From NCBI GenBank assembly GCA_034189745.1, contig JAXHUI010000003.1, forward strand, positions 15,048 to 79,047: a DNA stretch of 64,000 bases, in the 5' to 3' direction. A model generated the notes under the pieces. The model saw only the letters and a list, made by a program, of their open reading frames with translations. It was not told the origin of the DNA and searched no databases. Position 1 is the stretch's first letter, and each line of letters begins with the position of its first letter. The position numbers were made by a program, and so were the translations under genes. Positions 3,374 to 20,952 of the stretch are shown here, piece by piece. This stretch comes from Pseudomonadota bacterium. GTDB taxonomy: Bacteria; Pseudomonadota; Gammaproteobacteria; Pseudomonadales; Balneatricaceae.

Positions 3374-5172
3374 TATTCGCCTCGCATGAAGAGTTTATCC
3401 AGTTGCGCCAGACTCAGCTGGCTCCAGGTGGGTCGGCCGTGATTGCACTGGCCCGCGCGCTCGGTCTGCTCCATCTCGCGCAGCAGTGCGTTCATTTCGG
3501 CCAGCGTCAGCTGCCGATTGGCCCGCACCGCGGCATGGCAGGCCATGGTGGCCAACAGCTCATTCAAGTGCGCCTCGATCCGATCGCTCACCCCCACCCG
3601 GAGCAGATCCGCCAGCAGCTCATGCAGCAACCGGGCCACATCCGCCTTCGCCAACGCCACCGGCACCTCGCGGATCACCAGCGTCTCTTCGCCCATCCGC
3701 TGCACACGGAAACCCAGGCGTTCGAACGACTCCGGTTGCGCCTCCGCCAGATCCGCCTGCGCGCCGCTGACCGCCACGCTGACCGGAACCAACAACGGCT
3801 GACGGCGAATCTGCTCCTGTTCGAAGGCGCGTTTCAGCCGCTCATAAACGATCCGTTCGTGGGCCGCGTGCATATCCACCAACACCAGCCCCTGCGTGTT
3901 CTGCGACAAAATATAGATGCCGTGCAGCTGCGCCAGGGCGTAGCCCAGCGGCGGCGTCTCGACCCCCTGCCCGGCGGGCGCGGGCGCCTCCCCCGCCGGG
4001 TGCAGGGCCCCGTAGGCCCGCAGCTGCTCCTGCACCCCTGCAGCGGCGGGCGGGTGCCCACCCCGGTGGGAGGGAACCGGGGTGGCACTCATGCCGGGCT
4101 GAACCCAGCTCGCCGGGGCTGGAACCGCTGCCGCACCGGTGGAAGGGACACCCTCGTGTTGAGGGCGCAGTTGGGCGATGGTGCGGTAGAGGGTGCGAAA
4201 GATGAAATCATGCACCAGCCGGCTTTCACGAAAGCGCACCTCATGTTTGGTCGGGTGTACATTGACATCCACCAGCGCCGGGTCGAGCTCCAGGTAAAGC
4301 ACATAGGCCGGGTGGCGGCCCTGAAAGAGCACATCCTGATACGCCTGGCGCACCGCATGGGTCACAACCTTGTCACGAATGACCCGGCCATTGACGAAAA
4401 AATACTGCTGATCCGGTTGTGCCCGGGAACAGGTCGGCAGCCCCATCCAGCCCCACAGACGTAGCCCGGACGCCTCGGCCTGCAGATCCAGCGCCACCGA
4501 CTCGGCCACAAACGTCTTGCCCAGCAACTGGGCGAGGCGCTGCTCACGGGCCGCCTCACGGGTGGCGGCGCGCAGCTGATGCACCATTTTGCCGTTGTGG
4601 CGCAGGCTGAACCCGACCTGGTAACGGCTCAGGGCGAGCCGCTTCACCACCTCCTCCAGGTGACGAAATTCGGTCTTTTCGGTTTTCAGGAACTTGCGCC
4701 GGGCCGGGGTGTTGAAGAACAGATCACGCACCTCCACCGTGGTGCCGGTGGGGTGTGCCGCGGGCATGATCTCGGCCACCATCTCCCGCCCCTGCGCGGA
4801 CACGGCCCAGCCGCTCTCCTGCTGCGGCGGCCGGGAGATCAGGGTCAAGCGGGACACGGAGCTGATGCTGGCCAGCGCCTCGCCCCGAAAGCCGAGACTG
4901 GCGACAGCCTCCAGATCCTCGAGCAGGGTGATTTTGGAGGTGGCGTGTCGGTTCAGGGCCAGGGGCAGGTCCGCCTTGTCGATACCGCTGCCATTGTCAC
5001 GCAGGCGGATCAGCTTGACGCCCCCCTGCTCGATGTCGAGCTCGACCCGGTCGGCGCCCGAGTCCAGACTGTTTTCCAGCAACTCCTTGACCACCGAGGC
5101 GGGCCGCTCGACGACCTCGCCGGCGGCGATCTGGTTGGCCAGCTGGGGGGAAAGAAGATGGATGCGTGTCAT
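3373..5172 (-). CDS. mutL: DNA mismatch repair protein MutL
   Basis: [61 protein letters not shown]. Confidence 0.98.
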
Positions 5173-13186: not shown

Positions 13187-13813
13187 TCAAAGCGCCCCCG
13201 GCGCCGCTGGCTTGAGCCCACGCCAGCGCTCGACCACCGGCAGGTGTACCCCGAACTGATCCAGAACGCGCCCCACGATCTGGGTCACAACCGCGTCCAG
13301 ATCCTGCAAGCCAAGGTAGAAGGCGGGCGCCGGAGGAAAGATGATCCCCCCGGCCTCGGTCACGGCCACCATGTTGCGCAACTGGATGAGATTCAGCGGC
13401 GCCTCCCGCGTCACCAGCACCAGCCGCCTGCGCTCCTTGAGCGTGACATCCGCGGCCCGCGTCACCAGATTGTCGCTGCTGCCATGGGCGATCCCCGAGA
13501 GGGTTTTCATGGAGCAGGGGATCACCACCATCCCCTCGGTGCGAAACGACCCACTGGCGATGGCCGCGCCGATATCCTTGTGCCCATACACGCAGGTGGC
13601 CAGTTGCTGGAACCGATCACGCCCCACCTCCAGCTCCTGTTGCGCCGTGACCACCGCCGCCGGGGAGAGCACCAGATGGGTCTCCCACTCCGGCACCCCC
13701 TGCATCAGCTGCAGCAAACGCAACCCCAGCAGCGCGCCGGAGGCCCCGGTGACCGCCACCACCAGCCGCCGGCGAGGGGGCTGCTCAGATCCGGCGGCGA
13801 TCTCACTGCTCAC
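13187..13813 (-). CDS. ubiX: Flavin prenyltransferase UbiX (makes prFMN for UbiD)
   Basis: VAVTGASG, IASGSF, PCSMKTL, RAADVTLKERR, REAPL, PPAPAFY; GTG start overlaps the upstream stop. Confidence 0.94.
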   Translation of the reverse strand: MSSEIAAGSEQPPRRRLVVAVTGASGALLGLRLLQLMQGVPEWETHLVLSPAAVVTAQQELEVGRDRFQQLATCVYGHKDIGAAIASGSFRTEGMVVIPCSMKTLSGIAHGSSDNLVTRAADVTLKERRRLVLVTREAPLNLIQLRNMVAVTEAGGIIFPPAPAFYLGLQDLDAVVTQIVGRVLDQFGVHLPVVERWRGLKPAAPGAL

Positions 13814-15159
13814 GCCAGCGCCTCTTCGAGTCGCGAGCGCAACGCGACAAAGCCCGCGTCACTGTACTGCTGCAGCGCCACCGGTTGCAGGGCGGGACTG
13901 GCGCGGACCACACCGATCCCCTGCTGCGCCCAGTGGGTGATGAGGCGCCGGCCAAGCTCCAGCGCGGAATCGACCGCTCCCGGCTCGAACAGGATGAACG
14001 CCTCGGCCAGCAGAGAGCGCCACGCGGTGCCCTGCTCGATCACAATCTGGCAGCCGCTTCCCTGCGCGATCTGGTGGGTGCCGCGCACGAACGCCCGTGC
14101 GCTGTCGCCTTCGATCGGCATGGCGAAACAGAGCCGCAACATCCGCCCCCTGGCGCCATCGAGAAAGGCTCGATACCGCGGCGCCGGCCGCCCCGACATC
14201 AGGGCGGTGCGCTCCGCCTCGGGCGCGAGCGGCTGCATGGTGATGCCGCCGAGCTGGCCGGCAAGCCCCTCGAGCATGGTCCACACCGCGTCGACATTTT
14301 TCTCCAGTCCATAAAGCGCGCCGTATATATTCCAGCCACCGGGGTCGCCCTCCCCGGTAAGCCGCCGCTCACTGCGCTCATCCACAGCCACGAGGGTATT
14401 GGGCACCACCATGTTGATCCGCAGGGAGCGCACCGCCTCCATCGCCGCCACGAATCGATCGTCGTCATCGACGCGCCAGACGAACGGTCGGTAAGCGGGC
14501 GGTTGCGGTGATACCCAAAAGCCCATTTTGGTGGTCACCGCATAGGCGCTCTGGGTGAAGATGCCATCGGCGTAGGGGCCAAAGCCGTATTTGAACAGCT
14601 GCCAGCTGTTCTCACCGGGCATCGCCCCCATGCCGGTGCGCACCAGGCTGCCGTCGGTCTGCATCACCTCCATTCCGCACTGCATCATCATGCGATCGCC
14701 ATAGGCGGTGTAGCCGAAGCTGCGCTCCCAGATGCTGCCGGTGATGGAGGCGTCGGCGTCGGCACCGGCATCGAGCCACAACGCCAAGCCGTTTTCCTTC
14801 AGGTGGGCCGCCAGTTGCGCGTAGCTGACGCCGGGCTCCACCAGCGCGTAGCCGGAGGCGGCGTCCACCTCGACGATCCGGTTCAGACGCGACAGCTCCA
14901 GCAATACCGGAGCGGCGCCGCCGGCCGGAGGCACCACGAGGGCGTTACCCGCCTGGTTCCAGGCGATCCAAAGTGAAACGCCGGACGCTTTGGCCGCCGG
15001 CAAAACCAACGCCAGCTCCTCCACGGAGGCCGGCCGCACCCGCTGCTCGGGATGGCGCCCCTCGACGCCGACGCCCTGGTGCAGGATGGAGCGATCCGTT
15101 ATCGCTTCCAGCGCCAGCCCCGCCGCTTCCAGCCGCTTGGCAAAGTTTTCTACTGCCAT
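13810..15159 (-). CDS. Degenerate VAO/PCMH-family flavoprotein paralogue (probable pseudoenzyme subunit)
   Basis: Keeps VEPGVSY, GYTAYGD, RTGMGAMPG..WQLFKYGFGPYADGIFTQS; lacks STGKN-YGG, the covalent-FAD residue, GEYR Tyr and the C-terminal DPxGILxPGK motif. Confidence 0.8.
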   Translation of the reverse strand: MAVENFAKRLEAAGLALEAITDRSILHQGVGVEGRHPEQRVRPASVEELALVLPAAKASGVSLWIAWNQAGNALVVPPAGGAAPVLLELSRLNRIVEVDAASGYALVEPGVSYAQLAAHLKENGLALWLDAGADADASITGSIWERSFGYTAYGDRMMMQCGMEVMQTDGSLVRTGMGAMPGENSWQLFKYGFGPYADGIFTQSAYAVTTKMGFWVSPQPPAYRPFVWRVDDDDRFVAAMEAVRSLRINMVVPNTLVAVDERSERRLTGEGDPGGWNIYGALYGLEKNVDAVWTMLEGLAGQLGGITMQPLAPEAERTALMSGRPAPRYRAFLDGARGRMLRLCFAMPIEGDSARAFVRGTHQIAQGSGCQIVIEQGTAWRSLLAEAFILFEPGAVDSALELGRRLITHWAQQGIGVVRASPALQPVALQQYSDAGFVALRSRLEEALA

Positions 15160-15401
15160 TATTTTCTCCCCCGAGATTGTTGTGGTTCGAACAGTTGACG
15201 CAACCGATCCAGATCAACGCCGGTTAGCTGCGCCCAGCGGGGCCGCTGGCTCGGATCGATGACCGCGGGGGGCTCACTGTCACGCCAGGTAAACGCACAA
15301 TGACCACAGTGCCAAACCTCCCACACCTTTTTACCCTGCTCATGACCCGAATGGACCCGGGTGGCGCTGCGCGTTTCACAGCGCGGACAGATCTCACTCA
15401 T
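15159..15401 (-). CDS. Non-oxidative hydroxyarylate decarboxylase subunit D (VdcD/BsdD-like)
   Basis: CPRC...VWEVWHCGHCAFTWRDSEP pattern; directly downstream of the UbiD gene. Confidence 0.85.
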   Translation of the reverse strand: MSEICPRCETRSATRVHSGHEQGKKVWEVWHCGHCAFTWRDSEPPAVIDPSQRPRWAQLTGVDLDRLRQLFEPQQSRGRK

Positions 15402-16884
15402 CTTCTCCTCCTTGCACCTGCATCGATTTCAGCCGCTGCAGCAGGGCGTCGATCTCTGCGCCCGCCGGTCGGCTCACCAGGTGTGGATCGGCACCGAGAT
15501 TATCCGGGGCCATGAAACTGGTTGCATCGATGATCAGCCGATGCCCTTTTCCGGGCACCTCCGCGGCCGGATCGATCGGCACCATCGCCATATTGGGCAA
15601 CACCATGATGTCATTCGCCCGGGTGCGGGTGGACAACGCCCAGATCACCTCCTCCAGGTTGAAGGGGTCGACAAACTCATCCACCAGAATGATGTTTTTC
15701 AGATACATGACGCCGTGGGGGGTACCCAACGCCCGCATCGCCACCGACTTGGCAAAACCCGCCACCCGGTTGCGCACCGAGATGATGGCGGTCAAACCAT
15801 GCTGGTACATGGCGTTGACCGCCTGTACCTCGGGAAAATCCTTTTTCAGGGCCGAGTAGATCGGCACCGAGGTGGGAAGCCCGATCAGGGTGTCGTGCTC
15901 CGTCCATCCTCGACCGATGTAGATATTTTCAAAGATCGGATCGTGGCGGTGGCTCACCGAGGTGACCTTGAACAGGGGTACCTTGCGCACCCCACTGTAA
16001 CTGCCGGGGAACTCGCCAAAGGGCCCTTCGGTCTCGCGCTCGTTGAGCACCATCTCGGTCTCGATCACCATCTCGCTGTCGGCCAAAATCTCTGTCCCAT
16101 TGAGCGCCTGGGTCAGGCGCAGACGCGAACCAAACACCTGTGAGGCATAGGCGAATTCCGATTCGTCGTAGCCCACCGGGGTGCCGCCAAACAGGGTCAT
16201 CGCCGGATGGTTGCCGATCATGATCGAGGCCCGCAACGGCTTGCCGTGGGCTTCGGCGGCCATCATCTGGCGACCGGCGTCATGGGAGGGGATGGAGAGA
16301 ATGGTCAGCGTGTCCGGCCCCATCACTTGGATGCGGTAGATGCCGACATTTTGTTTGTCGAAATTATCCGGCTCCAACGGGTCGCGGGTCACGACGCACG
16401 CCTTGGCGATGTAGAACCCCCCATCCATCTCGTTGATGCGATACAGGGGCAGGAGCTCGTACAGATTGATCTCCCGATCGATATGGTTCGCGCAGATGGG
16501 CGCCTGCTCACGCGGTATCCGCTCGAGCAGGGGTTTATCCGACCCCCATCGGCTCACCATCTCAAAAAACATCTCCCGCACGCTGGCGCTTTTGGGCAGA
16601 CCCAGCAACAGTGCCAGGTTGGCGAAGCTGCCCAGCACATTGGTGGCGATGCGGTGGCCGGGGTAACCCTGCACGTTGTCGAGCAACACAGCCGGCCCGC
16701 TGGCGACATCGTTCCCGGCCGCAACCGAAACGTTACGGATGTCGGGCTCGGGTCTCACCGGGTCATGCCACACCACCATCTGGTTACGCCGCGCCAGCAG
16801 GTCGAGAAAATCCCGCAGGCACCCGAGACCCGCGGCGGTAGCCTTTGCCGAGGCTGAGAGCCCCGTGTTCTTTTCACTGTCCAT
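15394..16884 (-). CDS. UbiD-family prFMN-dependent decarboxylase (VdcC/BsdC-like subunit C)
   Basis: DGGFY, KQNVGIYRIQ, EGPFGEF, FPEVQAVNAMYQHG, VDPFNLEEVIWAL, IIDAT. Confidence 0.9.
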   Translation of the reverse strand: MDSEKNTGLSASAKATAAGLGCLRDFLDLLARRNQMVVWHDPVRPEPDIRNVSVAAGNDVASGPAVLLDNVQGYPGHRIATNVLGSFANLALLLGLPKSASVREMFFEMVSRWGSDKPLLERIPREQAPICANHIDREINLYELLPLYRINEMDGGFYIAKACVVTRDPLEPDNFDKQNVGIYRIQVMGPDTLTILSIPSHDAGRQMMAAEAHGKPLRASIMIGNHPAMTLFGGTPVGYDESEFAYASQVFGSRLRLTQALNGTEILADSEMVIETEMVLNERETEGPFGEFPGSYSGVRKVPLFKVTSVSHRHDPIFENIYIGRGWTEHDTLIGLPTSVPIYSALKKDFPEVQAVNAMYQHGLTAIISVRNRVAGFAKSVAMRALGTPHGVMYLKNIILVDEFVDPFNLEEVIWALSTRTRANDIMVLPNMAMVPIDPAAEVPGKGHRLIIDATSFMAPDNLGADPHLVSRPAGAEIDALLQRLKSMQVQGGEDE

Positions 16885-18313
16885 GGGCACCCCCCTGGAT
16901 CGTGATCCACTTCCATTCGGTGCAGTGGTCGATGTCGGTCACCGTGCCCTCGCGGCCCATGCCGGAATCACCGACGCCACCAAAGGGCACGTGGGGCTCG
17001 TCGTACAGCGTGGGGGCGTTTACATGCACCATCCCCGCCCGGAGCCGACGCGAAGCCTGCATCGCCCAGTCGAGGTTGCGGGTATACACCGCCGCCGAAA
17101 GACCATAAGAGGTATCGTTGGCCAACTGCAGGGCCTGTTCGAGATCATCTACCGGATACACCGCCGTCACCGGGCCGAAGGTCTCCTCCCGGTAGCAGGT
17201 CATGCTCTCGCTCACCCCCGTGAGGATGGTGGGGTGGCAGCGGTTGCCGCTCCAATCCCCCCCGGTCAGAACCTGTGCGCCTTTGGCCCGGGCGTCGGCG
17301 ATATGCTCCCGTATCCGCTGCCGTTGACGTTCGGAGATAATCGGACCGATCACGGTGGCGGGGTCACTCAGCGGGCCCAGATTCAAAGACTCGGCCGCGG
17401 CGGTAAAGCGCTCGAGGAAAGCAGCATACAGGGGACGCGCTACCAGAATGCGACTGGCGGCCATGCAGGCCTGCCCCTGATAGAGAAACATGCTTTTCAC
17501 GGCATCCGCCACCGCCAGCTCCAGATCCGCATCCTCCAGGATCAACAGGGGGTTTTTCCCGCCGAGTTCCAACAACGAACGCTTGAAGTGGCGACCGCAC
17601 AGCTCGGAGAGGTGGCGCCCCACCCGGGTGGAGCCGGTGAAGTTCACGGCCCGAACCGCCGGCGCCTCGACCAGACGGTCACCGATCTCATGGCCGATTC
17701 CCGTCAGCAGATTGAAGGCACCGGCCGGAAAGCCGGCGTGGTGAAACAGCTCCGCCACCCTGACGGCCAGCACCGGCGCCTCCTCCGAGGCCAGCATGAC
17801 CACCGTATTGCCGGTCGCCAGCGGACCGGTACACTGCTTCATCGCCTTGATCAGAGGGACATTGAAGGGGGTGATACAGGCAACGACCCCCAACGGCTCA
17901 CGGATGCTGAGCCCCACCCGCCCCGGCGCGTCCGAGGGGAGGGTCTGGCCACAAACGCGCCGGGGGATACCCGCGGCGGCGCGCAGGTGGCCGATGGCGT
18001 ACTGGATCTCGAACCGAGCCTTCATCACCGGGGAACCGATCTCCTCGATCAGCACCTCTTCAAAGGCCTCGGCCCGCTCTTCCAGTAGCTGCGCGGCCCG
18101 CATCAGCCACGCCTCCCGTTCCCGGGCGAGGGTCTGGCGATAGGTTTGGAAGGCGGCATCGGCCGCCGCCACCGCCGCATCGACATCGGCAGGGCCGGCC
18201 TTGGCCACCACCGCAAACGCCTGATCATCTTCCGGTCGAAGGTCGACGAACGTGCTTTTATTGGCAGCGCTCACCCATTGACCGTCGATCCACAATTGGG
18301 TCTGTAGCATCAT
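16874..18313 (-). CDS. Aromatic aldehyde dehydrogenase (PchA/Vdh-like)
   Basis: ITPFNVP, FTGSTRVG, LELGGKNP, QGQACMAASR (catalytic Cys), EETFGP. Confidence 0.9.
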   Translation of the reverse strand: MMLQTQLWIDGQWVSAANKSTFVDLRPEDDQAFAVVAKAGPADVDAAVAAADAAFQTYRQTLAREREAWLMRAAQLLEERAEAFEEVLIEEIGSPVMKARFEIQYAIGHLRAAAGIPRRVCGQTLPSDAPGRVGLSIREPLGVVACITPFNVPLIKAMKQCTGPLATGNTVVMLASEEAPVLAVRVAELFHHAGFPAGAFNLLTGIGHEIGDRLVEAPAVRAVNFTGSTRVGRHLSELCGRHFKRSLLELGGKNPLLILEDADLELAVADAVKSMFLYQGQACMAASRILVARPLYAAFLERFTAAAESLNLGPLSDPATVIGPIISERQRQRIREHIADARAKGAQVLTGGDWSGNRCHPTILTGVSESMTCYREETFGPVTAVYPVDDLEQALQLANDTSYGLSAAVYTRNLDWAMQASRRLRAGMVHVNAPTLYDEPHVPFGGVGDSGMGREGTVTDIDHCTEWKWITIQGGAHGQ

Positions 18314-18663
18314 TTTTCTTTGTCCTCTATCTTGTTTTTTTGCGCGGCGGAAGTGGAGAGGTAGCGCGCCAGCGCATCCAACTCGCGGGCACTGATCTCA
18401 GAGGGTCTAAAGGGGGGCATCATATTGAGCCCGTGGCGGACAATCCGGCGCACATAATCCGGCTCCAGCGGCTCTCGATCCAGCAACGATGGCTGTTGCG
18501 GCCAGCGATCAGCGAGTCGCGCCGTACCCGGATACTCCATGCCGCGATCATGGCAGACGGTACAATATTGTTCGAACAGCGCCCGGCCATCGGGCTCGGC
18601 GAGCAGTGTGGATGAAAGAGTGCCCAAACCAAGCCCCACGGCCAGCGATAGCAATGTTTTCAT
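18310..18663 (-). CDS. Monoheme cytochrome c subunit (PchC-like)
   Basis: Sec-type signal, CTVCH, PGT, VRHGLNMMPPF (axial Met). Confidence 0.88.
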   Translation of the reverse strand: MKTLLSLAVGLGLGTLSSTLLAEPDGRALFEQYCTVCHDRGMEYPGTARLADRWPQQPSLLDREPLEPDYVRRIVRHGLNMMPPFRPSEISARELDALARYLSTSAAQKNKIEDKEK

Positions 18664-20234
18664 CAGACTCCCTCCTTCCGCAGCCGTTGGGGCCAGATCC
18701 CCATCTTGCCAGGCCCCAGTATGCCGCTTGGATCGAGGGCATCCTTCAACCGCTCCCGCTGTCGCTGTTGGGCGGCGTCATTCCAGTTATAGGTGCCCGC
18801 TATTTTGTCCATGAAATCGAGGTGGGTGCGATATTCACCATACCCTTCGGCCGCGGCGGCATCGATCAGCTCGCCAAACAGCTGGTTCGCCCGACGCTTT
18901 TCCGCCTCATCCTGCAGATCATAAACAAGGGCAAAAATGTGGTGCATGTCACGCCAACCAACCAGCATCTCGCCGATGTAATCGAACCCGGCCCGGTTGA
19001 CACGATCCCGGATCAGACTGTACTGGCGCATCGCATCCTCGCCGGTGACGGGGGAGATGGGAGAGAAGTCCATGTGTCCGCCGTTGGGGATCCAGTTCAT
19101 CTGGTTGTACTCGGTCATATTGGGGATGCCGCGCATGAGCTGCCTGCGGTACTCCCAGCCGATATCCCCCTTGCGATCGTCGTCGAAGTAGATTTTCGCC
19201 CCCGGGATCGACGTGAGCGAGTCACGGATGATCTCGAGGTTGTTTTCCATGATCGGCGCCGGGCCATAGACAGCCCCATAAAAATTCCACACCCCGATCT
19301 GCAGATCGGCACGCAGTTTCTTTCTCGCCGACTCCGGCAAGGGCCCCTTGCCGGTGTGGTAGTGACGGCGCTGCTTTTGCACGGCCGCCTCCCAGAGCAT
19401 CTCCACGGTGGTGGCGGCGTTGGGAATGATGTTGTTGAGCTTGAGCGGACGAACCCGCTCGGTGACCTCGTACAGATCCTCCTCGCGCTCGTAAGTGATC
19501 ATGAAGGGGGTGTAGCCCGGCGGCTCCGGCATCAGCCAGATGCCGATCCGGGTCACCACGCCAAAATTGGACTGGGTAAAAAGCCCGTCGGCCCATGGCC
19601 CCAACCCGTATTTGTAGAGGTGTGTGGTGCGGCTGCCGGGCAGGGCACCCATGGCGGTGTGGGCGATCGTGCCGTCAGCGAGCACCACCTCCATGCCGCA
19701 CTGCATCAGCAGGTGATCACCATACGGGGTGTAACCGGCTCCATGGTCCACCAGATTGCCCAACATGCCGCCCCAGCCCGGCGCGGCGGGGTCGATCCAC
19801 AGTTTGGAGCCGATGCTTTGCAGATGCCGATACATATCCATGTAGCTCACGCCGGGCTCCACCACGGCGTAGGCGTGTTTTTCATTTACCTCGAGGATCC
19901 GATTCATCCGTTTGAGGTCCAGCACCACCGCACCGGCCAGCCGGGGGGCAGGGCCGCCATAGGCGAAATTTTTACCCGTGGAGATCGGCCACAGCGGGAT
20001 GCCGTATCGTCCTGCGGCGCGAACAACGGCCTGCACCTGGGCCACGTTCGCCGGGGCGACGGCGGCGGAGGGCTGATGCAGCGCCTTGGGCAGGGTGGCA
20101 TATTCGTCATTGTAGGCGGGCAATTCCCATTCGAGATCGAGGTAGACGTAATCCCGACCCACCGCTTTTTGCGCCTCGGCCACAAACCCACGGAAAGCCT
20201 CACCGTTCACCTGCGGCGGAAGTATTCTCTCCAT
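18663..20234 (-). CDS. 4-alkylphenol/vanillyl alcohol dehydrogenase flavoprotein (VAO/PCMH family)
   Basis: STGKNFAYGG, VEPGVSY, GYTPYGDH, NWIPNGGHMDFSP, GEYRTH, DPSGILGPGKMGIWP. Confidence 0.9.
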   Translation of the reverse strand: MERILPPQVNGEAFRGFVAEAQKAVGRDYVYLDLEWELPAYNDEYATLPKALHQPSAAVAPANVAQVQAVVRAAGRYGIPLWPISTGKNFAYGGPAPRLAGAVVLDLKRMNRILEVNEKHAYAVVEPGVSYMDMYRHLQSIGSKLWIDPAAPGWGGMLGNLVDHGAGYTPYGDHLLMQCGMEVVLADGTIAHTAMGALPGSRTTHLYKYGLGPWADGLFTQSNFGVVTRIGIWLMPEPPGYTPFMITYEREEDLYEVTERVRPLKLNNIIPNAATTVEMLWEAAVQKQRRHYHTGKGPLPESARKKLRADLQIGVWNFYGAVYGPAPIMENNLEIIRDSLTSIPGAKIYFDDDRKGDIGWEYRRQLMRGIPNMTEYNQMNWIPNGGHMDFSPISPVTGEDAMRQYSLIRDRVNRAGFDYIGEMLVGWRDMHHIFALVYDLQDEAEKRRANQLFGELIDAAAAEGYGEYRTHLDFMDKIAGTYNWNDAAQQRQRERLKDALDPSGILGPGKMGIWPQRLRKEGV

Positions 20235-20815
20235 CAGACAGCCCTCCCCGGCAAGGCGAGCAGAGAGGCCCTGGCCGTGTCAGCCCAGCACTGCGCCTGG
20301 TGCAGCCGCGAAATCCGCTTTTGCTTGAAAAGCTCGCGGGGGTCCAGATCGAGAGCCAGCAGGTTGCCGGCAAAGTCGTACTCATCGCGCGCGGCGCCCA
20401 CGGCCCCGGCCAAAGAGCCCGCCAGGGAGGCGGGGGCGTGGATCTCATGCAGCCGCGCAGCTTTCGCGCCGTGCATGCCGCGCATGACGACTCGCCAGCG
20501 GCTGCCCAGTTGGGTGCGAAGAGCGAAAATGGCGGCGGGCGTCCCCAGAGCGACCAGGGCAGAGTAGTTGTCGACCGACAACGGCCCCTCCGCCTGGTGG
20601 GAAATCGCCGCGGCACGCTCCAGACTCAGGGGGTGGTGCTCGAGCGATACCCCCCTTGGGGAAAAGGGGAGGCGGGGATCGGGATGCTCCGAGAGCAACA
20701 ACACAGGGCGCAGATCGGTGCGCGGATCACCAACCAGCCCCGCCCAGGCCGGCAGAACCGTTGCCCCACACAGCAGGCCGGTCGTACCGGTCAAAAAGTT
20801 TCGTCGCGTCATCAT
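20234..20815 (-). CDS. Tat-signal protein of unknown function, first gene of the aromatic operon
   Basis: TRRNFLT twin-arginine motif, hydrophobic stretch, AWA cleavage site; GAGGA RBS; stop overlaps the flavoprotein start. Confidence 0.7.
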   Translation of the reverse strand: MMTRRNFLTGTTGLLCGATVLPAWAGLVGDPRTDLRPVLLLSEHPDPRLPFSPRGVSLEHHPLSLERAAAISHQAEGPLSVDNYSALVALGTPAAIFALRTQLGSRWRVVMRGMHGAKAARLHEIHAPASLAGSLAGAVGAARDEYDFAGNLLALDLDPRELFKQKRISRLHQAQCWADTARASLLALPGRAV

Positions 20816-20952
20816 TATTTTTATTCCTCTTGGACGTTAGCGCATCGAAATTAGCACCCCCTCTCAGAGTGCGCAACAAGCTGACCCTTTGAGAGTTGCC
20901 GCCCGCTCCGTTATGATCAGCCGTACCATATCTGAATGGTCGTACCCATAAT

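What the first reader, a model, noticed from the sequence alone, without database searches (positions are those of the whole stretch)
20234..20815. Tat-signal protein leading the operon: possible piggy-back exporter for the signal-less flavoprotein
Seen: TRRNFLT...AWA signal, no cofactor motif, stop overlapping the flavoprotein start; the flavoprotein has no signal peptide while its cytochrome has a Sec signal. Known: PCMH is periplasmic, pch operons carry an uncharacterised pchX gene, and Tat hitch-hiking is established for hydrogenases and DMSO reductase. Inference: this protein carries the folded FAD-loaded subunit through Tat, which would suggest a role for PchX-like genes.
Basis: inference. 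Interest (0 to 1): 0.6.

Follow-up and report, generated by a model that had tools for sequence, protein, structure and literature searches.

The report
Tat-signal escort for signal-less flavoprotein
A small, unannotated protein with a twin-arginine export signal sits directly in front of a signal-less phenol-oxidising flavoprotein, and most likely carries the folded, FAD-loaded enzyme into the periplasm, which would also explain the long-unassigned pchX gene of p-cresol operons.

Summary
The ORF at 20234-20815 (minus strand) encodes 193 aa beginning MMTRRNFLTG...LPAWA|G. Its stop overlaps the start of a signal-less VAO/PCMH-type flavoprotein (TGATG), and a cytochrome c with a Sec-type signal follows.

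The hitch-hiking interpretation is supported, by comparison and modelling only.
- 68 of 80 related genome loci have a homologous RR-signal gene beside the flavoprotein gene.
- 8 loci lack it, and there the flavoprotein carries its own N-terminal Tat signal.
- A profile built from the mature domain alone recovers only these neighbours.
- A predicted complex scores ipSAE 0.89 against 0.00 for the best control.
- The predicted contact covers the loop before the FAD-linking His387 and the flavin-edge loop. A cytochrome would be expected to dock there (inference).

PchX-position proteins next to true PchF orthologues are remote members of the family. They share the RR motif and two invariant histidines. 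The P. putida PchX sequence itself could not be compared.

The flavoprotein is closest to Marinicaulis vanillyl-alcohol dehydrogenase, not PCMH. The mechanism is of a known kind (compare the gamma subunit of Burkholderia FAD-glucose dehydrogenase), but the family is unnamed. This scan reached the same reading on at least six other genomes. No experiment exists.

The parts
20234..20815 (-). Gene for the 193-aa Tat-signal escort protein, a member of an unnamed family and remotely PchX-like
   Evidence: ORF. No Pfam or NCBIfam family. Homologues abut the flavoprotein gene in 68 of 80 loci. Monomer model has pLDDT 84.4 and an alpha/beta fold.
20741..20815 (-). Twin-arginine signal peptide, residues 1-25 (MMTRRNFLTG...LPAWA); R4 and R5 are encoded at 20801-20806
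   Evidence: Read directly from the sequence. RR is invariant in the family. TAT_signal is the only recurrent Pfam match, in 23 of 52 relatives.
20237..20740 (-). Mature alpha/beta domain (residues 26-193) with invariant H115 and H123 and a conserved C-terminal strand; predicted to bind the flavoprotein
   Evidence: A profile seeded with the mature part alone recovers 72 neighbour ORFs out of 3132. Predicted interface residues are listed.
20825..20831 (-). Shine-Dalgarno sequence AAGAGGA, 9 nt before the ATG
   Evidence: Read.
20232..20236 (-). TGATG stop/start overlap coupling the escort gene to the flavoprotein gene
   Evidence: Read. The same abutting or overlapping arrangement (0-16 nt) is seen in most related loci.
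18663..20234 (-). Signal-less VAO/PCMH-family flavoprotein (523 aa, vanillyl-alcohol dehydrogenase clade, His387 FAD-linking site): the presumed cargo
   Evidence: Pfam FAD_binding_4 and FAD-oxidase_C. Best solved relatives are 8S7P/8S7N at 660 bits; 1DII scores 440 bits. Motif NWIPNGGH387MDFSP.
18310..18663 (-). Monohaem cytochrome c (117 aa) with a Sec-type leader, the presumed electron acceptor, exported separately
   Evidence: Pfam Cytochrome_CBB3. Leader MKTLLSLAVGLGLGTLSSTLLA read.
13187..18313 (-). Rest of the operon (context only): aldehyde dehydrogenase, VdcC, VdcD, a second VAO-like flavoprotein without a signal, and UbiX/VdcB
   Evidence: The same gene order occurs on Paraburkholderia and sphingomonad plasmids.

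Best explanation
The 193-aa protein is a Tat-targeted escort. Translation is coupled, so escort and flavoprotein are made together.

Proposed sequence of events:
1. The flavoprotein folds and takes up FAD in the cytoplasm.
2. The mature alpha/beta domain of the escort binds it over the loop preceding the FAD-linking His387 and the loop covering the flavin edge.
3. The escort's twin-arginine signal takes the complex through TatABC.
4. The cytochrome c arrives separately by Sec and receives its haem in the periplasm.

I favour, with less confidence, that the escort is then released or displaced by the cytochrome rather than kept as a subunit.

Shown here: the signal, the gene coupling, the one-to-one genomic pairing, and the cis/trans alternation of the Tat signal. 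Predicted: the complex and its interface. Inferred: the export itself, the overlap with the cytochrome site, and the release.
For: 1. The Tat motif, A-x-A site and TGATG overlap are in the sequence, and TatC is in the genome.

2. Among 80 genome loci whose flavoprotein is at least 52% identical, 68 have an RR-signal ORF of this family abutting the flavoprotein gene: 62 upstream, 3 downstream after cytochrome c, 2 of a short subtype, and 1 frameshifted.

3. Eight loci have no such gene, and there the flavoprotein itself starts with a Tat signal. Examples are MVTRRDFLKSS... in L015, L017, L018, L020, L021, L022 and L025, and VLTRRRFVQG... in the Sphingobium locus L081, at least two independent events.
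   - Two of the five cis-signal genomes searched have no family member anywhere.
   - The other three have one each, always beside another signal-less flavoprotein plus cytochrome c.

4. A profile seeded with the mature domain only hits 72 of 3132 ORFs, all of them flavoprotein neighbours. The gene is single-copy in its own genome. The only other hit among 401 genomes sampled from the phylum overlaps a VAO/PCMH flavoprotein gene.

5. The predicted complex scores ipSAE 0.89 against 0.00 for the best of 3 controls. That mark was reached by 58 of 80 solved complexes and 2 of 110 mismatched pairs. The runs agree, partner pLDDT is 80-82, and there are 68-73 contacts. No like complex is solved.

6. 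The closest solved enzyme, Marinicaulis VAD, folds and flavinylates in E. coli without any partner (PMC7617285). The small protein is therefore not needed for folding.

7. An exact functional precedent exists: the gamma subunit of Burkholderia FAD-glucose dehydrogenase (PMC6719666).
Against: - There is no experimental localisation for this enzyme or for any member of the VAD clade.
- The window protein's own TAT_signal score is below Pfam's cut-off: 12.4 against 22.7 bits.
- Two loci, L035 and L072, show neither a cis nor a trans signal in the DNA available.
- Predicted interface residues of the escort are no more conserved than the rest of the protein (p = 0.34), although that comparison includes the buried core.
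- The complex is a model made with my own alignments.
- The downstream pathway enzymes (ALDH, VdcBCD) are cytoplasmic, so a periplasmic first step is not required by the pathway's logic.
- The release or displacement step rests on my recollection that purified PCMH is alpha2beta2 without a third chain.
Confidence: 0.75

Rival explanations
1. The small protein exports the flavoprotein and then stays as a permanent third (gamma-like) subunit of the periplasmic enzyme, stabilising it or tuning electron transfer. This differs from the best explanation only in what happens after export.
For: The predicted interface is large, at about 70 contacts. The mature domain of about 165 residues is conserved, with two invariant histidines. 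The BcGDH gamma subunit stays bound in the crystal (PMC6719666).
Against: The predicted site covers the loop before His387, including M379 (the position of PchF Tyr384), and the P152 flavin-edge loop. That is where an electron acceptor should dock (PMC7617285; inference). By my recollection, native PCMH preparations and crystals (1DII) contain only flavoprotein and cytochrome.
Confidence: 0.2
2. The small protein is an independent periplasmic protein, for example a ligand-binding or accessory redox protein. It works with the enzyme but plays no part in exporting it. The flavoprotein stays cytoplasmic or uses another route.
For: The fold resembles, weakly, one lobe of type I periplasmic binding proteins (best Z 6.1). 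The rest of the pathway is cytoplasmic.
Against: This does not explain why the flavoprotein acquires its own Tat signal exactly where the small gene is missing. It also does not explain the strict one-to-one adjacency or the confident predicted complex. A Z of 6 is within the range of generic alpha/beta matches.
Confidence: 0.04
3. The small protein is a cytoplasmic assembly or proofreading chaperone for FAD insertion, analogous to REMP chaperones such as TorD and DmsD, and its N-terminus is not a functional export signal.
For: The gene is translationally coupled to the flavoprotein gene. By my recollection, covalent flavinylation of PchF needs a partner protein.
Against: The RR motif is invariant in every homologue, which a non-exported chaperone would not need. 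REMPs bind signal peptides and carry none themselves. The related VAD is made with covalent FAD in E. coli without any partner (PMC7617285).
Confidence: 0.01

Closest known systems
[quoted passage not shown]
   Same: Both are three-gene logic: a small protein carrying the only Tat signal, a signal-less FAD catalytic subunit, and a c-type cytochrome exported on its own. In both, the small protein binds the folded flavoprotein.
   Different: There is no sequence relation: no Pfam hit, including Gluconate_2-dh3, in any of 52 members at E <= 1. The fold differs: alpha/beta here against five helices for gamma (PMC6719666). The cargo is a VAO/PCMH-fold enzyme, not a GMC-fold one. Gamma is reported as needed for proper folding, whereas the VAD relative folds alone (PMC7617285).
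pchX, the unassigned middle gene of pchA-pchC-pchX-pchF in Pseudomonas putida pRA4000/pRA500, and the hypothetical C4ZM79 of Thauera (bioRxiv 10.64898/2026.01.30.702948)
   Same: It is a small gene of unknown function tied to a PCMH-family flavoprotein and its cytochrome.
- Proteins in the pchX position next to true PchF orthologues carry RR signals and the two invariant histidines. These orthologues are L005 (691 bits to 1DII) and L087 (758 bits to 1DII).
- They match the family profile: E 5e-22 for L005 X, and hhalign 87% with E 4e-6.
- The secondary-structure order is the same.
   Different: Here the gene leads the operon instead of lying between the cytochrome and flavoprotein genes. Identity to PchX-position proteins is only about 15-20%. 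The gammaproteobacterial PchX-position proteins match weakly: L088 X at E 8e-7 and L087 X (P0067) at E 6e-3. The P. putida sequence itself was not available.
Classical Tat hitch-hiking pairs: [NiFe] hydrogenase small/large subunits, DmsA/DmsB, PaoABC (PMC4273604)
   Same: One partner carries the signal, and a cofactor-loaded, folded partner is co-translocated.
   Different: In those pairs the signal-bearing partner is itself a redox subunit with cofactors. Here it has no recognisable cofactor motif and may exist only for export.
Marinicaulis flavus vanillyl-alcohol dehydrogenase, PDB 8S7N/8S7P (PMC7617285)
   Same: It is the closest solved relative of the cargo flavoprotein (660 bits). It shares the His387 covalent FAD site, the proline of the flavin-edge loop, and an expected endogenous cytochrome c acceptor. 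A Marinicaulis locus (L085) has a short RR escort gene directly upstream.
   Different: The paper does not mention localisation, signals or a partner gene ('periplasm' and 'signal' each occur 0 times).

Membership tests
Twin-arginine (Tat) signal peptides | S/T-R-R-x-F-L-K consensus near the N-terminus | tested here: met
   The window protein reads T-R-R-N-F-L-T at residues 3-9. RR is invariant in all family alignments.
Twin-arginine (Tat) signal peptides | Moderately hydrophobic h-region followed by an A-x-A signal-peptidase site | tested here: met
   GTTGLLCGATVLP, then A-W-A|G, by inspection. No predictor was available.
Twin-arginine (Tat) signal peptides | Score above the curated cut-off of Pfam TAT_signal (PF10518) | tested here: inconclusive
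   The window protein scores 12.4 bits against a cut-off of 22.7. Of 52 relatives, 23 match at E <= 1, the best at 1.8e-5. The model is very short.
Twin-arginine (Tat) signal peptides | A Tat translocase in the same genome | tested here: met
   TatC (PF00902) scores 231 bits in G000 contig 64.
Tat hitch-hiker escort / signal-bearing partner | The cargo lacks any signal while the partner carries one | tested here: met
   The flavoprotein N-terminus and its in-frame upstream sequence hold no signal. The escort has the RR signal.
Tat hitch-hiker escort / signal-bearing partner | The signal in trans can be replaced by a signal in cis (the two are mutually exclusive) | tested here: met
   8 loci have a cis signal and no escort gene; 68 loci have an escort and no cis signal.
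Tat hitch-hiker escort / signal-bearing partner | Physical complex between escort and folded cargo | tested here: met
   Prediction only: ipSAE 0.89 against 0.00 for the best control. The mark was reached by 58 of 80 solved complexes and 2 of 110 mismatched pairs.
Tat hitch-hiker escort / signal-bearing partner | Export of the cargo depends on the escort, on its RR motif and on TatC | not testable with these tools
   Needs cell fractionation of mutants.
PchX (middle gene of pchC-pchX-pchF) | Encoded beside a PCMH-family flavoprotein gene and its cytochrome c gene | tested here: met
   Adjacent and overlapping. The order here is X-F-C, not C-X-F.
PchX (middle gene of pchC-pchX-pchF) | Sequence homology to proteins in the pchX position next to true PchF orthologues | tested here: met
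   The Sulfuricurvum X (P0022) scores E 5e-22 with the mature-only profile. hhalign of A6 against A7 gives 87%, E 4.3e-6. RR and two histidines are invariant in the joint alignment. The gammaproteobacterial X proteins are weak: L088 X at E 8e-7 and L087 X (P0067) at E 6e-3.
PchX (middle gene of pchC-pchX-pchF) | Direct similarity to P. putida NCIMB 9866/9869 PchX | not tested
BcGDH gamma / Gluconate_2-dh3 small subunits | Sequence membership (Pfam) and all-helical fold | tested here: not met
   No such Pfam hit in any of 52 members at E <= 1. The model is alpha/beta, whereas gamma has five helices (PMC6719666).
REMP chaperones (TorD/DmsD type) | Cytoplasmic protein without a signal peptide that binds the signal of its client | tested here: not met
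   The protein carries an invariant RR signal itself, and its client has no signal.

The most novel reading that the evidence does not exclude
The escort is a disposable placeholder. In the cytoplasm it occupies the cytochrome-docking face of the flavoprotein, over the FAD-linking loop and the flavin edge. It shields that face during Tat transport. It is then displaced in the periplasm by the Sec-exported, haem-loaded cytochrome c. Export and ordered assembly of a two-pathway (Tat plus Sec) flavocytochrome would then be coupled by competition for one surface. The two invariant histidines may take part in this hand-off.
Probability: 0.3. Interest if true: 0.7.

Novelty: new member of a known kind. 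Interest (0 to 1): 0.55.

Why it matters
Three open points would be settled if this is true.
- **Export of PCMH-type enzymes.** PCMH has been known to be periplasmic since 1985 while its flavoprotein has no signal. A 2025 preprint on the BpfAB bisphenol F hydroxylase still attributes periplasmic targeting to the cytochrome's signal (10.1101/2025.09.08.674859). It overlooks the RR-signal gene that directly follows bpfB (L006:5988-6557).
- **A function for pchX-type genes.** They have been listed as unknown in every pch, pcm and Thauera operon description I could read.
- **Heterologous expression.** Periplasmic expression of PCMH, VAD, eugenol-hydroxylase and BpfA-type enzymes for lignin-aromatic and bisphenol conversion would need the small gene, or a cis Tat signal as nature uses in some lineages.

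The family has no Pfam or NCBIfam model and could be defined from the alignments made here.

Tried and rejected
- **Direct comparison with P. putida PchX was not possible.** The plasmid collection holds no Pseudomonas pch record. The word-indexed protein searches returned only close relatives of each query: 13, 17 and 34 hits, none with an informative name. A full-library phmmer gave 7 hits.
- **Older papers could not be opened.** Kim 1994 and Peters 2007 were not retrievable by DOI, PubMed id or a guessed PMC id. I cannot exclude that the idea was voiced there. Full-text searches linking PCMH or pchX with Tat or hitch-hiking found nothing relevant.
- **Single-sequence hhalign was too weak.** A1 against the sphingomonad, Sulfuricurvum and Bpf-cluster proteins failed (probability below 3%). 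Only iterated profiles linked them.
- **L078 is not a natural fusion.** The apparent 666-aa ORF joining escort and flavoprotein is rejected, because tblastn shows the escort's C-terminal part continues in another frame.
- **The interface-conservation test was uninformative**.
- **Fold searches gave no meaningful relative.** Foldseek against the PDB found nothing at E <= 0.001. VIA-align's best match was Z 6.1 to one lobe of periplasmic binding proteins, which is generic.
- **The language-model atlas search gave only unnamed clusters** with scores below 0.9.
Full report
**The observation**

On the minus strand, 20234-20815 is a 193-aa ORF with a good Shine-Dalgarno sequence (AAGAGGA, 9 nt upstream). 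It begins MMTRRNFLTGTTGLLCGATVLPAWA|GL: a T-R-R-x-F-L twin-arginine motif, a mildly hydrophobic stretch and an A-x-A site.

Its TGA shares one base with the ATG of the next gene (TGATG). That next gene (18663-20234) is a 523-aa FAD_binding_4/FAD-oxidase_C protein whose N-terminus, MERILPPQVNGEAF, has no leader. The following gene (18310-18663) is a 117-aa monohaem cytochrome c with a Sec-type leader.

The small protein matches no Pfam or NCBIfam family. The genome encodes TatC.

**What the neighbours are**

- The flavoprotein is closest to the vanillyl-alcohol dehydrogenase of Marinicaulis flavus (8S7P/8S7N, 660 bits) and more distant from P. putida PCMH (1DII, 440 bits).
- It has the His387 FAD-linking site and the proline of the flavin-edge loop described for that enzyme (PMC7617285).
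- Downstream lie an aldehyde dehydrogenase, VdcC, VdcD, a second signal-less VAO-like protein and UbiX.
- The same order occurs on Paraburkholderia and sphingomonad plasmids, each led by a 'hypothetical protein' with an RR N-terminus.

**The family**

Single-sequence searches find few relatives, because the protein evolves fast. I collected 80 genome loci whose flavoprotein is at least 52% identical to this one and built an ORF set of 3132 entries from them.

A profile seeded only with the mature part of the protein (no signal peptide) and iterated converged on 72 ORFs. Each lies directly beside the flavoprotein gene, and most are matched over the whole mature domain. All start with an RR motif. 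Gaps to the flavoprotein gene are mostly 0-16 nt.

The family alignments show invariant RR, two invariant histidines (H115 and H123 here) and a conserved C-terminal strand.

From the small-protein side the pairing is equally strict. The gene is single-copy in its own genome. In a sample of 401 genomes of the phylum, the only other hit overlaps a VAO/PCMH flavoprotein gene.

**The natural experiment**

The 80 loci sort as follows.

| Category | Loci |
|---|---|
| Small RR gene in trans (62 upstream, 3 downstream of the cytochrome gene, 2 short-subtype, 1 frameshifted) | 68 |
| No small gene, but flavoprotein ORF begins with its own Tat signal | 8 |
| Neither signal in the DNA available (L035, L072) | 2 |
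| Uninformative | 2 |

The eight cis-signal loci fall into two groups. Seven are closely related gammaproteobacterial genomes (MVTRRDFLKSS...). One is a Sphingobium (VLTRRRFVQG...), which is a separate event.

I searched five of the cis-signal genomes in full. Two have no family member at all. The other three have exactly one each, and it sits beside a different, signal-less flavoprotein followed by a cytochrome c.

A Tat signal is thus supplied either on the enzyme or on the small neighbour, but not both. This is the strongest evidence that the enzyme is a Tat substrate and that the small protein is its signal carrier.

**Structure and complex**

The small protein folds with confidence (pLDDT 84.4, pTM 0.77) into an alpha/beta domain behind a disordered signal. 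It has no clear solved relative. The nearest predicted structures are unnamed or 'Tat signal domain' clusters of similar size.

A complex of the flavoprotein with the mature small protein scored ipSAE 0.89 in three concordant runs. The best of three controls scored 0.00. That mark was reached by 58 of 80 solved complexes and 2 of 110 mismatched pairs, though the counts hold only roughly here because my own alignments were used. Partner pLDDT was 80-82. To my knowledge no similar complex is solved, so recall is unlikely to explain the pass.

The flavoprotein residues in contact are 1, 31-44, 88, 132, 152-154, 288, 291, 372-385 and 441.
- Residues 372-385 immediately precede His387. They include M379, the position of the FAD-linking Tyr384 of PchF (motif comparison; Thauera preprint).

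This is where an electron-accepting cytochrome should dock. That is my inference from recalled PCMH geometry and was not tested here.

The interface residues of the small protein are not more conserved than the rest of it, which neither helps nor hurts.

**The link to PchX**

Two loci carry a true PchF orthologue in the order cytochrome-X-flavoprotein.
- Sulfuricurvum pSULKU01: 691 bits to 1DII, with the YNWRGGGGSMWFAPV motif. X is annotated only as a Tat-signal protein.
- A gammaproteobacterial genome: 758 bits to 1DII. X begins MSLGRRDFLKG.

The evidence for homology is as follows.
- The Sulfuricurvum X matches the mature-only profile at E 5e-22.
- Its own family aligns to mine by hhalign at 87% probability, E 4.3e-6, across the segment holding both histidines.
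- In a joint alignment, RR and both histidines are the only invariant columns.
- Its model has the same order of strands and helices, although only its N-terminal half is confident.
- The gammaproteobacterial X proteins match only weakly: the L088 X at E 8e-7 and the L087 X at E 6e-3.

PchX-position proteins are therefore remote members of one family. I could not obtain P. putida PchX itself.

**How it most likely works**

The two genes are translated together. The flavoprotein folds and binds FAD. Its close relative does so in E. coli with no helper (PMC7617285), so the small protein is not a folding factor. The small protein clamps onto the flavin-edge face, and its signal takes the complex through Tat. 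The cytochrome follows by Sec.

Because, by my recollection, native PCMH contains only flavoprotein and cytochrome, and because the predicted footprint covers the expected cytochrome site, I favour release or displacement in the periplasm. A permanent third subunit remains possible.

I did not test that.

**Comparison with what is known**

The logic matches the gamma/alpha/beta FAD-glucose dehydrogenase of Burkholderia: a small Tat-signal 'hitchhiker' protein, a signal-less FAD subunit and a c-type cytochrome (PMC6719666). It also matches classical hitch-hiking pairs (PMC4273604). The fold and sequence are unrelated, and the cargo belongs to a different flavoenzyme superfamily.

In the papers I could search, pchX and its counterparts are still called unknown. 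The BpfAB preprint assigns periplasmic targeting to the cytochrome's signal, although an RR-signal family member follows bpfB. The VAD paper does not discuss localisation. Older subscription papers could not be read.

**Verdict**

This is a real gene of an unnamed family, and very probably a Tat escort for a signal-less flavoprotein. It is a new family doing a known kind of job, and it explains an old unassigned gene.

The same reading was reached by this scan on at least six other genomes. That is repetition, not independent proof. Cell fractionation of the deletion, RR-to-KK and tatC mutants would settle it.

Noticed in passing
window 20447-20473 (codons of H115 and H123 of the small protein): Two histidines on neighbouring strands are invariant in every family alignment, including the PchX-position proteins. 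Their role is unexplained; metal binding, a contact with the flavin-edge loop, or a part in hand-off are all possible.
   Followed up: partly
L015, L017, L018, L020, L021, L022, L025 (about 4880-5000) and L081:4806-6551: These flavoproteins of the same clade carry their own N-terminal twin-arginine signal and have no escort gene. The signal was acquired at least twice independently.
   Followed up: yes
L074, L083, L084, L085, L086 (about 4585-5030); L103:1399-1782: A short escort subtype of 127-141 aa, with a GVTTESFHFCL motif, matches only the N-terminal half of the long form. It accompanies the Marinicaulis-type vanillyl-alcohol dehydrogenase clade whose structure was solved without it.
   Followed up: partly
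L006:5988-6557 (Sphingobium yanoikuyae pF1, bpf cluster): The gene after bpfB (cytochrome c) in the bisphenol F hydroxylase cluster is an RR-signal member of this family. The BpfAB preprint does not mention it.
   Followed up: partly
L002, L003 and about 30 sphingomonad loci among L038-L081: Sphingomonad versions of the operon keep the escort gene but have no cytochrome c gene next to the flavoprotein. Their electron acceptor is encoded elsewhere or differs.
   Followed up: no
L051:4418-4992 and L078:4575-5000: The escort gene is interrupted by a frameshift in two metagenome-assembled genomes. In L078 this mimics a fusion with the flavoprotein. Either could be an assembly error or real decay.
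   Followed up: partly
L035:5001-6883 and L072:3158-5100: Two loci have a signal-less flavoprotein plus cytochrome c but no escort gene in the available flanks. The genome holding L035 has an escort at a second locus (L013).
   Followed up: partly
window 13810-15159: The second VAO-like flavoprotein of the operon also lacks any signal. If it pairs with the active flavoprotein, it would have to be co-exported by the same escort.
   Followed up: no
window 18489-20567 (+): A 692-aa open frame runs antisense to the flavoprotein and escort genes. It is an artefact of high G+C content, not a gene.
   Followed up: no
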